From contig NC_043021.1 in NCBI RefSeq assembly GCF_006345805.1, forward strand, positions 26,288,001 through 26,352,000: a stretch of 64,000 nt of DNA. Reading direction: 5' to 3'. Positions 366 to 62,984 of the stretch are shown here, piece after piece. Source of the DNA: Octopus sinensis. Its lineage: Eukaryota. The translations under genes and the position numbers were made by a program. Position 1 is the stretch's first letter, and every line of letters starts with the position of its first letter. The notes under the pieces are model-generated. The model saw only the letters and a list, made by a program, of their open reading frames with translations. It made no database searches and was not told the DNA's origin.

Positions 366-601
366 AGTACAGGACAAACAATACAAGGAAATATGCATAT
401 ATTTTATTTATTTATTATATTACTATATGACCGAACGCACGCGTTATTTCTCTATTTCTCTTCTCCAAGTTTTTATATATATATATATATATAAAAACTT
501 GGAGAAGAGAAATAGAGAAATAACGCGTGCGTTCGGTCATATAGTAATATAATAAATAAATAAAATATATGCATATTTCCTTGTATTGTTTGTCCTGTAC
601 T
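366..601. repeat. Perfect ~236-bp palindrome centred on a (TA)n tract
   Basis: AGTACAGGACAAACAATACAAGG...CCAAGTTTTT(AT)n AAAAACTTGG...CCTTGTATTGTTTGTCCTGTACT; the arms are reverse complements about 483/484. Confidence 0.95.
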
Positions 602-702
602 GATACACTGATAAACAGTTTCGCCATGGGCTCTTAGGAGCATAGTTCGATTTGGTTTTTGCTCCGCCTCTGTTCTGTTTTTGTTTCTCTAACGGATTTC
701 CT

Positions 703-793
703 TTTTTCTTCCTGAAGAGAAAGACACAATATGGTCCCATTATTCAATCGGATTTTGGTAATTTGTGCCTTTCGAAACACGTGTAGAATGAAA
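703..793 (+). ncRNA. Minimal type I hammerhead ribozyme motif (Penelope-like element tail)
   Basis: CUGAAGA 712-718; stem II GAAAGACACAA 719-729 / UUGUGCCUUUC 763-773; GAAA 774-777; palindromic stem III CACGUG; UA 784-785; imperfect stem I; AATAAA follows. Confidence 0.7.
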
Positions 794-1542
794 TAAAACG
801 ATTTCTGTTCAATCTGCGTTCAGCTCCATTTCCTCAATTCACCAATAATGTTTTAATTTCAATTATCCGCACCAACGCACGGTTGCAACGCCAGATGGTT
901 GTACCTCCAACCGTGCTGTTTACTGCTGTGATTTTTGCTACTAAGGTATCGGTTAACTTTTGATTAATCTACAACAAGATTATTCATCTTTCTATTTCAC
1001 ATATATATATATATATATATATATATATATATACACATACATGTATATATACATATATATATACATATATATATATATATGTATGTATGTATATATTATA
1101 TATACATATATATGTATATATATATATATATATATACACACACACACACACACACACACACACATATATATATATTATATATATATATTATATATATATA
1201 TATATGTACACACATACATACATATATATACATATATCTATATGTATTATATGATATTTACCATGTGAACTACCATGAAAAAATATGAAAGACATGGTGT
1301 ATAATTTTTTGGTGCCGGGGTTCCTTGAGACATATAATCTATTTTAAGGGTTACACGCAGGTAAAAAGATTGAGAAACACTGCCCTATACCAAATATTGT
1401 TTTATGTGGACTGTCCAACCCCTACAAGCATGGAAAAGCATTAAAACAACAATGGTGATGTCCCCTCATATTGGCCGTGGCTTTAGCTTTATATAATTTG
1501 CATGTTTTATATGAACTCAAATTGTATTGTTTTATGTGTTAA

Positions 1543-1761
1543 CCTTTTAGCATTTAAACTGGCCACATCCAGTAAAAATATTCTACCTGTTTTATATTCA
1601 GACTGGCCATATCTGGCCTCTCACACTTACCCTAAAATGTCATTGTAAAAATAAACCATCACATCATTGAAATCTCAAAGCTACAAGATAATACCTGATT
1701 AATTCAAAACAATGTGAATAAATAAGGATTATTTTTAGAGAATTATATGAATGCTAATGGG
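1543..1761. mobile_element. piggyBac-like MITE (related copies near 4460-4665, 37735-37955, 52960-53110)
   Basis: TTAA|CCTTTTAGCATT ... AATGCTAATGGG|TTAA: terminal inverted repeats with TTAA flanks; the internal sequence recurs in the window. Confidence 0.7.
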
Positions 1762-58678: not shown

Positions 58679-58802
58679 CACAAGAAAATAAACAGAGAGA
58701 GAATTAAAAAAAGAAAGCTTTAGTAGCTAGCAGTCAATCACCACACATTTTATATAAATATATATATATATATATATATATATATATACACATATATATA
58801 TA

Positions 58803-61400
58803 AGACAACCGGAGGTTTCTAAGGGATAACCTGCTGAGAGCCACTGACCAGATCTGTGGCTGGTGCAAAGTCCCCTCTCAACCCAAAATAACGTGGTGGT
58901 GGAACAATGTTGTAGACAGGGCTATTAAACAAAAGAAACAGGCTTGGAAGGACTGGAAGAACGGAGGTAGCAGGGAACTGTATTAGACTGCCAGAAGGGA
59001 AGCTAGGAGACAGGTTTATTTAGCCAGAGGGGAAGCAGATAAGAAAAAATTTGCCAATATTCTGCACCGTGGGGACCAAAGACTTGAGGTATTCTGTGTT
59101 GTAAGACAGTGTGTAAGAGAGAATTGTGATGTGGTAGGAGAGAAATGTGTTCGCATGGATGATGGCTCACTTGCGCTAAATGAAGATGCAAAGAGAGAGG
59201 TTTAGAGACACCACTATGAAAGGTTGCTGAATAAAGAAAATGAATGGGATAAAGAGAGTCTGCCGAATGTCGACCCAACAGAGGGACCAGCTATCCGAGT
59301 TGACAGTTCCTTAGTAGTTAAGGTAATTAGAAGCATGAAGACAGGGAAAGCCCCATGCCCATCAGGAATTACTGCAGGGATGCTTAAAATATCTGGTAGG
59401 GTCGGCTATAGCCTAGTCACCCGTATAGTTAATCAGGTGATACACGAAGGAGTCATACCCAATTGACTGGTGTAACAGCATAATAGTCAACTGCTACAAA
59501 GGTAAAGGTAACGCCCTAGATACAAATAATTACAGAGGTATGACGCTGTTGGATCAGGTAATGAAGGTCACGGAGAGGGTCATAGCCCAACTGATTAGGG
59601 AGAGAGTCAGCTTGGATGAGATGCAGTTTGGTTTCGTGCCAGGGAAAAGCACCACTGATGCCATATTCCTGGTAAGACAGCTGCAGGAGAAATACCAAGC
59701 CAAAGATAAGGCCCTGTACCTGGCTTTCATTGACATGGAGAAAGCCTTCGACAGGGTCCCCTGATTCCTTATCTGGTGGTCAATGAGGAAACTAGGGATA
59801 GATGAATGGTTAGTGAGAGCTGTGCGAGCCATGTACAGGGACGCTGCTAGTAAGGTGAGGGTTGGCAACGAGTACAGTGAAGAATTCCGGGTAGAGGTAG
59901 GGGTCCACCAAGGTTCAGTCCTCAGCCCCCTCCTATTTATCATAGTCCTCCAGGCAATAACGGAGGAATTCAAGACAGGATGCCCCTGGGAGCTCCTCTA
60001 TGCTGATGACCTTGCTCTAATTGCTGAGTCACTATCAGAACTAGAGGCAAAGTTTCAAGTGTGGAGACAAGGATTAGAATTGAAGGGCCTTAAAATCAAC
60101 CTAGCTAAAACCAAAGTCCTAATATGTAGGAAGGCAGGCAAATCACAAATGCCTTCAGATAGATGGCCCTGCTCGATCTGTAGAAAAGGCGTAGGTAGAA
60201 AGATGCACCAAGAGTAAGCTATGGACACATAAGAGGTGCAGCAATATCAAAGGAAGGCTAACTGACTGGGAAGATAGTTTTTGTATGTGGCAGATGCTCA
60301 GGAGCAATAAACACTGAAAATGCTCAGAGACCAACTTCTGCCACATTCCAGGGAGAAAAACTAGAAGTAGTTGATAGCTTCTGTTACCTAGGTGACCAAG
60401 TCAGTAGCGGGTGTGCTGAAAGTGTAACTGCTAGAGTAAGAATAGCCTGGGCAAAGTTCAGAGAGCTCCTACCTCTGCTGGTGACAAAAGGCCTCTCGCT
60501 CAGAGTAAAAGGTAGACTGTATGATGCATGTGTGTACGAACAGCCATGCTACATGGCAGTGAAACTTGGGCCGTGACTGCTGAGGATATGCGTAAGCTCG
60601 CAAGAAATGAAGCCAGTATGCTCCGATGGATGTGTAATGTCAGTGTTCATACTCGACAGAGTGTAAGTACCTAGAGAGAAAAGTTGGACCTAAGAAGCAT
60701 TAGTTGTGGTGTGCAAGAGAGACGTTTGCGCTGGTATGGTCATGTAGCGAGAATGGATGAAGATAGTTGTGTGAAAAAGTGCCACATCCTAGCGGGAACC
60801 TGTGTAAGAGGTAGACCCAGGAAAACCTGGGACGAGGTGGTGAAGCACGACCTTTGAACTTTAGGTCTTACCGAGGAAATGACCAGAGACCGAGACCTTT
60901 GGAAGTATGCTGTTCGTGGGAAGACCCGGCAGGACAAGTGAGACTATAACCCGTGGCCTCTACCTGGGACATAGCCAGCCCACTTATGCATACCTTTCCT
61001 TCTTGTGACACAAACCCTACTTGTGAAGATCTGTTGAGGCAAGTGAAAATCAAAATCAAAATCGATCAACATCAATGGAAATTGTAGCTGTGATACCGTA
61101 AGAGAACCATCCGAACGTGGCCGTTGCCAACGCTGCCCCGACTGGCCTCCGTGCTGGTAGCACGTAAAAAGCATCATCTGATCGTGGCCGTTTGCCAGCC
61201 TCGTCTGGCACCTGTGCTGGTGGCATGTAAAAAGTACCCACTACACTCTCGGAGTGGTTGGCATTAGGAAGGGCATCCAGCTGTAGAAACACTGCCAGAT
61301 CAGACTGGGCCTGGTGCAGCCTTCTGGCTTCCCAGACACCAGTTGAACCGTCCAACCCATGCTAGCATGGAAAACGAACATTAAACGATGATGATGATGA
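58803..61400 (+). mobile_element. RTE LINE copy, 5'-truncated, with stops and frameshifts
   Basis: TWWWNNVV, NYRGMTLL, QFGFVPGKSTTDAIF, LLYADDL at 59999-60010; (GAT)n tail. Confidence 0.95.
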
Positions 61401-61667
61401 TATATTGGACAAACAGGAATATCACTCCATCGAAGAACCACCATCCACAAAGAGCAAATCCGCCACCCACAATACAGACAGTTACAGGTTAGTGAACATG
61501 TAGAGAGGTGTGTCAGGAATCTTAATCCTAATTTCCAAATCTTCCCCTTCTATCAATGTTCACAGAACACCACAATGCAACAAAGGTTGAATAAAGAGGC
61601 AATTTTCATCAATAAATATCTTCCCCAACTAAATATGAACACACAACTTAATACAGAACACCACTAA
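61401..61667 (+). pseudogene. Penelope-like element GIY-YIG endonuclease C-terminal fragment
   Basis: 88 open codons: YIGQTGISLHRRTTIHKEQIRH...VSEH...RLNKEAIFINKYLPQLN; absent from the ORF track; followed by 3' UTR with CGAAACCATGGTA near 61856. Confidence 0.85.
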
Positions 61668-62984
61668 CCCTTCAATTAACACCACTAACCCCTGTACACT
61701 CCCTACACCATTCACATTACAATTCTATATCTAACACAACTGCACTAAATCCAGAACTACTTACCTCCCTTACAAATAATCTTTTTACTCAGGAACTATT
61801 AGACCTGACACCGTTCATTAGCCGGTGTTTATTCAAAGCAATGTATAGCTTATGACGAAACCATGGTATACTTTGTTTTCTGACTATTTAATCATCTCAC
61901 AATAATGACTTTTATGACTTTTATTACTACCTCTAAATGTAAATATCTGTCGTTATCTTTCATAAAAAGCCTTTTCTGTTTTTCATATTTTCCCCTTACA
62001 TTTTATATTTTCTTTTTGTAACATATTTCTACTATATATATATATATATATATATATATGTCAAAACGAATTTGTGTCAGTGTCATGCTTTGACCCCCTC
62101 TCTCACTATTCAATGACACTTCTTCTACTCCTCTTGCAGGGGTGAGAGTAATAGTAGGCATAGAGATGGTGAGGTGGGGTTGTAGATTGCCGGTTGTGAT
62201 GGTAATGGGGTGATAGTAATAGTATGAGCAGTAGTTGAGATAGAGGCAGAGGCGAGAGTGCTGGTGGTGGTGGTAGTAGCTGAGGTGGTGAAGCATGCCC
62301 GTGATAGTGAATGGTGTGAAAGACAGTGGTGATGGTGGTGGAGGAGACAGCCACGAAGTCAAAGGTGTTGATGGTGGTGGTGCCAGAAGTCTGAATGGTG
62401 TGTGTATGGCAGTTGAGGTGGCGATGGTGGTGGTGCTGGTGATGGCTGAAAACAATCAACAGAAAGAAAGAGAGAGAGAAGGAAAGAGGTTAGACAGAAA
62501 AAGAAATTGTACTGATCCCCCCCCCCCACGGGAAGGCAAAAAATGTTGTTTGTCATGAAGCTTTGCATATTATATCATTGTTTTGATGAAAATTGTTCAT
62601 TGCTTGAAAAATATTGGTGAAGTTTAATAAAATTTAATATATACTCAATGCATAAAGTGTCATTGTTGGGCTCAAGGCCCAATGAAGAGCCCTCCACAGG
62701 GGCTAGCCTATAGAGCAGCTTTTAAGCTAGTGCACACACACGTGTGTGTGTGTGTGTGTTTGTCCCCCACCACAGCTGGTGTTGATGTGTTTACATCCCT
62801 GTAACTTAGTGGTTGAGCAAAAGAGATCGATAGACTAGGTACCAAGCTTAAAAGAAAACAAATAAGTCCTGGAGTCAACTCATTTGACTTAAAACTCTTC
62901 AAGGCAGTGCCCCAGCATGGCCACAGTCCAATGACAAAAACATGTGAAATAGAAGGGGAAAAAAATTAAAATGGATTAAATCTA

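What the first reader, a model, noticed from the sequence alone, without database searches (positions are those of the whole stretch)
366..61870. Dispersed hammerhead-ribozyme / fold-back modules (Penelope-type) across the window
Seen: CUGANGA...GAAA..UH cores with pairable stems at 712-785(+), 40865-40902(-) and 46332-46429 (both strands). Decayed versions occur at 24597(+), 40544(+), 58640(-) and 61856(+, 3' half only). The surrounding sequences look unrelated to each other, yet several share one architecture: simple-repeat context, ribozyme, AATAAA-type tail and an inverted duplicate of the tail. Known: Penelope-like elements carry minimal type I hammerheads and form inverted, truncated ends; a GIY-YIG remnant is at 61401. 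Inference: several distinct ribozyme-bearing non-autonomous families, roughly one motif per 8-9 kb.
Basis: partly seen in the sequence, partly recalled or inferred. Interest (0 to 1): 0.75.

Follow-up and report, generated by a model that had tools for sequence, protein, structure and literature searches.

The report
Penelope retrotransposon ends with variant hammerheads
Eight spots in this window are leftover end-pieces of eight common repeat families, most likely all Penelope-type jumping genes, each carrying a small hammerhead-shaped RNA motif of a known kind, but several whole families have changed normally fixed core letters, which would test how much a natural self-cutting RNA can vary; cutting is untested.

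Summary
The motifs are real. Three families (712, 46385, 61856) are joined elsewhere to Penelope RT/GIY-YIG ORFs, so they are truncated ends of autonomous elements, not dedicated non-autonomous families; four others are unresolved. The fold-backs are head-to-head arms, one long and one short (24 of 24, 18 of 19 insertions), as expected if both target strands prime reverse transcription at two fixed RNA sites. In one family 60 of 100 arms stop at one point 29 nt below a TATA box, likely the RNA start. Three sites were misread: 58640 has a family-wide A6U core (13,416 exact copies), 61856 is a whole hammerhead with an A3-U8 pair, and 40544 uses a more distant GAAA. Penelope hammerheads and inverted ends are published; natural A6U, A3-U8 and G3-C8 cores were not found in my searches, though two key papers were unavailable. 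Earlier notes of this scan report the same variants on other DNA. Cleavage untested.

The parts
603..1000 (+). Family A: 5'-truncated long arm of the terminal repeat (pLTR) of a young Hydra-like Penelope element; canonical hammerhead 709-788 (core 712-718, 55-nt stem-loop II, GAAA 774-777, 6-nt palindromic stem III, predicted cut after 785, stem I 3 bp)
   Evidence: 1017 candidates, 40 of 41 listed matches 100% identical; RT and endonuclease frames upstream in relatives; arm ends
366..601 (.). Perfect 119-nt-arm palindrome centred on (TA)n, flush with the 5' end of the family A arm; likely snap-back copy of flanking DNA in place of a second cDNA arm (inferred, single case)
   Evidence: 100% complementary; no match in other family A loci; the only (TA)n-centred palindrome found in the window and 316 loci; arm resembles another repeat's end
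24411..24682 (+). Family C: short inverted arm (24411-24439), tRNA-like head with A- and B-box-like words (about 24444-24515), hammerhead 24592-24634 whose cleavage triplet is lost by a 3-nt deletion
   Evidence: 2098 candidates; inverted arm; head in 13 of 20 loci, not called by ARAGORN; 12 of 13 unselected copies keep the intact form
37283..37490 (-).
   Evidence: descriptor hit; two relatives with whole G3-C8 core, both fold-backs (L191, L065)
40418..40745 (+). Family G: old (about 80% identity) element; core 40544-40550, about 85-nt stem-loop II, GAAA 40639-40642, 6-nt palindrome, window copy has U16.1 changed to C; stem I only 2 contiguous pairs
   Evidence: 846 candidates, inverted partners for some hits; alignment and tallies
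40760..40955 (-). Family B fold-back: long arm with hammerhead 40902-40865 (3-bp stem II with GGAA loop in relatives, one CpG change here) and short inverted arm 40912-40955; family mixes U4 and C4 cores
   Evidence: 2246 candidates; variable junctions; core tallies; stems I and III match published Hydra-2_aMil hammerhead
46250..46446 (.). Family F fold-back: long arm on minus strand, short arm on plus, both starting at AGCTT, the 5' edge of stem I; canonical core with U-U at the base of stem II; predicted to fold as one hairpin that buries both motifs
   Evidence: 663 candidates; 1033 exact core matches; arm starts and long/short pairing; hairpin -90.6 kcal/mol; Hydra-type ORF linked in L192, L194
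58555..58740 (-). Family D: hammerhead 58675-58640 with core CUGUUGA (A6U), extra A, 4-bp stem II, 2-nt palindromic stem III; two CpG changes in this copy; no inverted arm
   Evidence: 4391 candidates; 13,416 exact pattern matches, position 6 U in 99 and A in 0 of the first 100, position 7 free
61401..61664 (+). GIY-YIG endonuclease remnant of family E (Neptune-type Penelope element)
   Evidence: translation; RT, CxxC linker and full endonuclease upstream in relatives
61834..61875 (+). Family E hammerhead: 7-bp stem I, A3-U8 core (61841-61847), weak stem II, GAAA 61857-61860, 6-nt palindromic stem III; window copy changed at A6 and one stem I base
   Evidence: 1674 candidates; alignment; 26 of 29 pattern matches A3-U8, none C3-G8

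Best explanation
The eight motifs are hammerhead-shaped sequences in the terminal pieces of eight separate repeat families, three of them joined elsewhere to Penelope-like retrotransposon genes and the rest likely Penelope-like too, and the fold-backs likely form at each insertion when the element's endonuclease cuts both strands of a (TA)n target and its reverse transcriptase extends both ends from two fixed sites in the RNA. Shown: family membership, ORF linkage for A, E and F, one long plus one short arm per insertion, variable junctions, family-wide variant cores. Inferred: two cDNAs stop early or at the RNA's 5' end and are joined head to head; in family F that end is likely a TATA-driven start at the first base of stem I; the hammerheads likely cut slowly, as dimers or with the element's protein, and cutting is likely not needed for insertion; single decayed copies in this window are likely inactive, except that A (712) is identical to its young family.
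For: ORFs: A RT plus Hydra-type endonuclease (features, alignment rows), F in two loci, E RT-linker-GIY-YIG in L301, L302, L306, L313 among 8 extended loci. Arm asymmetry: A 18 of 19 two-armed insertions end at +136..146 and +286..290 from C3, the 19th has a partner ending at +58; F 24 of 24. This matches PAc in vitro: both strands cut and extended, two internal start sites, AT-rich targets, ribozyme not needed and protein-assisted (PMC11167929, parts 1-2 of 4). No family A partner arm starts at the predicted cut (+74). F: 60 of 100 arms end within 7 nt of the pattern start, 2 in the next 38 nt, 38 run further (after removing 16 duplicate rows of 116); a TATA word lies 29 nt upstream; arms joined to plain flank stop there too. 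B and F motifs match published Hydra hammerheads, including the U-U pair. Cross-family covariation: with positions 3, 4, 6, 7, 8 left free, 33 of 36 distinct hits in 316 loci have a Watson-Crick 3-8 pair, against 4 of 11, 2 of 6, 0 of 2 in three shuffles.
Against: No cleavage, no raw RNA reads. No linked ORF found for C, D, G, H; B is ambiguous (Neptune-type remnants upstream in L308, a Hydra-type RT further upstream in L312). The F junction point also reads as a splice acceptor (pyrimidines then TAG) and as a 4-nt palindrome, and extra G there can come from a cap or from stem I snap-back. Family A shows no pile-up at its own TATA/Inr-like site in a sample biased to long arms. E has only 1-2 pairs in stem II, competing hairpins, and a subfamily with a broken stem III; G has only 2 contiguous stem I pairs. 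Loci were gathered by family queries, so they are not an unbiased genome sample. PMC3846280 (passages) explains head-to-head palindromes by self-priming on an antisense template instead. Pfam gave no family for the A and F proteins.
Confidence: 0.8

Rival explanations
1. Some families (C, D, G, H, perhaps the F palindrome) spread as dedicated non-autonomous, SINE- or retrozyme-like units copied in trans by Penelope enzymes.
For: No ORF within the fetched loci for C, D, G, H; D has 13,416 exact motif copies with short shared flanks; C carries a tRNA-like head at which 13 of 20 arms begin; 19 of 19 top F relatives share one palindrome; trans-mobilisation by pLTRs is published (PMC3846280 passages).
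Against: A, E, F have ORFs; F junctions vary in unselected copies and the identical top hits were selected by a query that crossed the junction; no tandem retrozyme-like arrays at these sites; only up to 7.5 kb of a few loci per family was read.
Confidence: 0.3
2. Fold-backs arise from one cDNA that snaps back on itself or from self-priming on an antisense transcript, not from two separately primed cDNAs.
For: Short palindromes at many junctions; model in PMC3846280 (passages).
Against: Each arm ends at its own fixed RNA site, long on one side and short on the other, and either can be the more truncated; arms often overlap little or carry filler between them.
Confidence: 0.2
3. The variant cores (A6U, A3-U8, G3-C8, U4C) are dead relics carried along by successful masters, kept only as protein-binding or DNA signals.
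For: Ribozyme mutants do not stop PAc insertion in vitro; changes at A6 give low activity (PMC3088659 section 8); E stem II is weak.
Against: In D only position 7 varies (U48, A23, C17, G12 of 100) while flanks of 10 sampled copies average 72-74% identity (the motif itself was fixed by the pattern); 3-8 stays paired across families.
Confidence: 0.4
4. Chance motifs in AT-rich DNA, or assembly fold-back artefacts.
For: Bare CUGANGA is at background; folding z-scores are ordinary; one descriptor hit is chance.
Against: Hundreds to thousands of relatives per site with zero reversed-pattern controls; arms differ in length and by point changes; contigs of another run show loose ends at the same F junction (23 in X15).
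Confidence: 0.03

Closest known systems
Minimal type I hammerheads in pLTRs of metazoan Penelope-like elements (Cervera and De la Pena 2014, PMC4209133; parts 1-2 of 4 read)
   Same: Type I order, tiny or palindromic stem III, extra nucleotide after A9 (C, D, G, H), thousands of dispersed single copies, opposite-strand pairs 100-700 bp apart, a 3-8 covariation (U3-A8).
   Different: A6U, A3-U8 and G3-C8 are not in the parts read; stem-loop II reaches 55-85 nt in A and G.
Hydra clade PLEs, e.g. Hydra-2_Amil and Hydra-1_Obim (Craig et al. 2021, PMC8557442; section 11, passages, supplement passages and part 2 of 59)
   Same: C-terminal endonuclease without CCHH, CxxC and CxH near the end, (TA)n targets, inverted 5'-truncated copies; B shares stems I and III with Hydra-2_aMil, F shares the U-U pair and CAG/CUG stem III.
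   Different: Long-short difference is about 55 nt (F), 70 nt (B), 150 nt (A) rather than 30-40; A has a long low-complexity linker and no clear CxCx5C; F has a 2.5-kb microsatellite-rich 3' region; all cores in the published table are canonical.
Neptune-type PLEs (features from PMC8557442 passages)
   Same: Family E: RT, CxxCxxC linker, GIY-YIG with two internal cysteines.
   Different: Hammerhead core A3-U8; no tree built.
PAc (Poseidon) of Anolis, in vitro (Frangieh et al. 2024, PMC11167929; parts 1-2 of 4)
   Same: Two fixed internal start sites, both strands extended, AT-rich targets, read-through of the ribozyme.
   Different: No genomic pile-up of 5' ends at a promoter is described in the parts read.
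Metazoan non-LTR retrozymes (Li et al. 2026 preprint 10.64898/2026.07.22.740005, part 1 of 5; PMC7229834 listing only)
   Same: Non-coding copies with type I hammerheads, derived from pLTRs.
   Different: Retrozymes are head-to-tail tandem arrays; these sites are single or head-to-head.

Membership tests
EN+ Penelope-like element | RT plus C-terminal GIY-YIG-type endonuclease upstream of the terminal repeat | tested here: met
   Families A, E, F only
EN+ Penelope-like element | Same ORF link for families B, C, D, G, H | tested here: inconclusive
   B has conflicting remnants in L308 and L312; none found for C, D, G, H in the loci fetched
EN+ Penelope-like element | Head-to-head 5'-truncated copies with a tail on one end | tested here: met
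   A 18 of 19, F 24 of 24; inverted arms also seen for B, C, E, G, H
Hydra clade | Endonuclease lacking CCHH, with CxxC and CxH motifs; (TA)n targets | tested here: met
   A and F translations and flanks against section 11
Hydra clade | CxCx5C linker, RWK and DKT motifs, placement on an RT tree | tested here: inconclusive
   F has a variant linker (first Cys absent), A none clear; N-terminal motifs lie outside the truncated copies read; no tree built
Neptune clade | CX2-5CxxC linker and CCHH GIY-YIG | tested here: met
   Family E, L301 and L306; no tree built
Type I hammerhead ribozyme | Stems I-III around the core in C-G-S order | tested here: met
   A, B, C (intact form), D, F, H; E with weak stem II; G with weak stem I
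Type I hammerhead ribozyme | Canonical CUGANGA core | tested here: not met
   Met by A, C, F, G; not met by D (A6U), E (A3-U8), H (G3-C8); B mixed U4/C4
Type I hammerhead ribozyme | Site-specific self-cleavage | not testable with these tools
   No bench data; only contig-level runs
Non-LTR retrozyme | Head-to-tail tandem units each with a hammerhead | tested here: not met
   No tandem array covers any of the eight sites
tRNA-derived Pol III head (family C) | A and B boxes with 5' ends at the head | tested here: inconclusive
   Box-like words and arm starts in 13 of 20 loci; ARAGORN finds no tRNA in 9 loci or the window

The most novel reading that the evidence does not exclude
One animal genome runs a natural mutagenesis of the hammerhead core: its Penelope families use all four Watson-Crick pairs at 3-8 and a fixed A6U core in over 13,000 copies, all still cutting (slowly, as dimers or with the element's protein), and the midpoints of its fold-back stubs record the capped RNA start, so the genome itself maps both ends of the template in two-strand priming.
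Probability: 0.35. Interest if true: 0.65.

Novelty: new variant of a known kind. Interest (0 to 1): 0.43.

Why it matters
The overall pattern is ordinary for a Penelope-rich animal genome. What adds something: standard descriptors and Rfam miss these motifs, so hammerhead counts in animals are likely too low; family-wide A6U and purine-3 cores give direct tests of whether Penelope ribozymes must cut at all, an open question in PMC8557442 and PMC11167929; and the long/short arms and the start-anchored stubs give a genomic check of the in vitro two-site priming model and of how inverted ends form.

Tried and rejected
Rfam scan: only simple-repeat and hairpin noise, no hammerhead among rows shown. 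First search for family F with a 65-nt query found nothing; a longer query worked. Sequencing runs: no RNA holder listed; contigs of guessed-RNA runs cover family A and F ends but cannot show starts or cuts; X2 depth drops to zero just upstream of the F junction, a weak hint only. Descriptor hit 61563(-) rejected as antisense coding chance. An upstream CUGAC word as core for E rejected: no 3-8 pair, no stem I. A permuted (SGC/CSG) fold for G, prompted by earlier notes and PMC10085705 passages, was checked by eye and not needed once the distal GAAA was found. Start-site pile-up in family A: not seen. More (TA)n-centred snap-back palindromes: none in 316 loci. Pfam does not recognise the A, E or F proteins. 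Papers not held: Lunse et al. 2017 and Przybilski and Hammann 2007; both may already cover core variants. No structure or complex prediction was run.
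Full report
Observation. The window lies at G000:C25:26288001-26352000 in a 2.72-Gb genome. A canonical type I descriptor finds 2 sites (712+, 40898-) against 0.12 in 40 shuffles, a stricter setting finds none, and a variant-core descriptor finds 4 against 1.02. The bare heptamer is at background (33 against 26.9), the loose full pattern is about twice background (21 against 9.0). 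Rfam shows no hammerhead among the 150 listed of 194 matches. The stronger evidence is family structure.

Families. Own-genome searches place each site in its own repeat family: A 712 (1017 first-look candidates, near-identical), B 40898 (2246), C 24597 (2098), D 58671 (4391), E 61841 (1674), F 46385 (663), G 40544 (846). Only 40 candidates were scored per search. The seven core regions do not align with each other. An eighth site, H at 37465(-), came from the descriptor and has two relatives with a whole motif among the fetched loci, both fold-backs; no genome-wide search was left for it.

Link to Penelope genes. A continues upstream into an RT and an endonuclease with Hydra features (PMC8557442 section 11; supplement alignment rows). 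F is linked to a Hydra-type ORF across a 2.5-kb microsatellite-rich region in two loci, L192 and L194. E continues into RT, a CxxCxxC linker and a cysteine-bearing GIY-YIG, that is Neptune-type, in several of 8 extended loci. B is unresolved: Neptune-type remnants precede it in L308, a Hydra-type RT lies further up in L312, and its stems I and III equal those of published Hydra-2_aMil. For C, D, G, H no linked ORF was seen in the loci fetched. No tree was built.

Fold-backs. In A, 18 of 19 two-armed insertions have one arm ending 136-146 nt and the other 286-290 nt after C3, with 5' ends scattered and none of the partner arms starting at the predicted cut. In F, 24 of 24 two-armed loci pair a long with a short arm. 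B junctions vary copy by copy. This fits PAc in vitro, where both strands are cut and extended from two internal RNA sites and ribozyme mutants still insert (PMC11167929), and the published inverted 5'-truncated copies with a one-sided tail. In the window, B, C and F are two-armed; D, E, G, H are single arms. For A the partner is a perfect palindrome of unrelated flank centred on (TA)n, which I read as snap-back synthesis from the second nick; it is the only such case in 316 loci, so this is a guess.

Family F midpoint. An exact 33-nt core pattern has 1033 matches and no reversed control. I fetched the first 100. After removing 16 duplicate rows of 116, 60 arms end within 7 nt upstream of the pattern, 2 in the next 38 nt, 38 run on. 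The stop is the first base of stem I, 29 nt below a TATA word preceded by a C-rich box, and it holds for arms joined to plain flank. A capped start is the likeliest cause; a splice acceptor, or termination at a 4-nt palindrome, are not excluded, and the D. virilis intron ends at this same helix. The pattern cannot see arms that stop inside the core. Family C arms begin at a tRNA-like head in 13 of 20 loci, a reading I took from earlier notes; ARAGORN calls no tRNA. Family A showed no such pile-up.

Cores. D: 13,416 exact matches; in the first 100, position 3 is C in 99, position 6 is U in 99 and never A, position 7 is free (U48, A23, C17, G12, counted by hand), while flanks of 10 copies average 72-74% identity. 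E: 7-bp stem I, A3-U8 in 26 of 29 matches, three single changes, no C3-G8; stem II is only 1-2 pairs, competing hairpins exist and a subfamily breaks stem III. H: G3-C8 in 3 of 3 whole copies. B: both U4 and C4 occur (11, 5 and 1 other among arms not fixed by the pattern). F: canonical with the U-U pair typical of published Hydra motifs (also PMC3088659 section 8). G: the conserved GAAA and palindrome lie at 40639 (16 of 19 relatives), stem I is weak. C: the window copy lacks the cleavage triplet; 12 of 13 unselected copies are intact. Across 316 loci (1,012,684 bases, gathered by family queries) 33 of 36 descriptor hits keep a Watson-Crick 3-8 pair, including one U3-A8, against 6 of 19 in three shuffles. 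The F palindrome is predicted to form a -90.6 kcal/mol hairpin that buries both motifs.

Expression. No run on record as RNA was listed; contigs cannot show starts or cuts.

Known and new. Penelope minimal hammerheads, dispersed single copies, opposite-strand pairs and U3-A8 are in PMC4209133; U3-A8, A6C, U4C and U-U at stem II in PMC3088659; cephalopod Hydra and Naiad elements in PMC8557442. Searches for A3-U8, G3-C8 and A6U wordings found no occurrence in the listed papers (one search listed 20 of 55), nor a cephalopod hammerhead survey; Lunse 2017 and Przybilski 2007 were not held and supplements of PMC4209133 and PMC3088659 were not read, so absence from print is not established. From recall, engineered hammerheads tolerate all four 3-8 pairs. 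Earlier notes of this scan describe the A6U family, purine-3 cores, the tRNA head and start-marking stumps on other DNA and call this genome an octopus; I did not test the organism.

Verdict. Real, mostly known biology: Penelope terminal fragments with hammerheads and two-armed insertion scars. The added value lies in family-wide variant cores and the start-anchored stubs, both untested at the bench. New variant of a known kind; interest 0.43.

Noticed in passing
window 24625-24634; L052, L054, L058, L062, L063, L067, L070: Family C copies recurrently lack 3 nt exactly at the predicted cleavage site; in 5 of 7 two-armed insertions with one such arm the partner arm is intact. Could be slippage at a 2-nt microhomology plus query selection, or a footprint of cleavage.
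   Followed up: partly
window 43149-43619: Palindrome with 233-nt arms, 97% complementary; arm matches L022 and L176 at 91-92%; no hammerhead found by the descriptors; possibly a MITE.
   Followed up: partly
window 28976-35582: Satellite of 53-nt units, about 124 copies, 86% matches.
   Followed up: no
window 26725-28122 (-), 57237-58080 (-), 59441-60576 (+), about 10600-10950 (-): Several copies of a LINE with RVT_1 and a PHD-like finger.
   Followed up: partly
window 41232-41780 (-): Pif1 helicase 2B domain fragment, E 2.6e-15, likely a Helitron piece.
   Followed up: partly
window 50925-51302 (-): Frame with a weak MFS_1 match (E 0.0019); resembles the end of an SLC45-type transporter (recalled); may be a host exon.
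   Followed up: partly
L248, L113, L224, L271, L282, L030, L178, L145 flanks: Further unrelated hammerhead families as by-catch, including U4C cores, a U3-A8 core and long stem-loop II forms.
   Followed up: no
window 157-484: Nested repeat ends between (TA)n tracts; 272-370 resembles the tail of another dispersed family found in L042, L141, L176.
   Followed up: partly
L194 (G000:C1:164324200-164329800): Family F ORF is separated from its terminal repeat by about 2.5 kb of microsatellite-like sequence shared with L192.
   Followed up: partly
window 40760-40800 and 46250-46300: Long tails of families B and F share a short TATT(T)GAGTAC word, similar to the end of published Hydra-2_Amil; candidate RT recognition site.
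   Followed up: no
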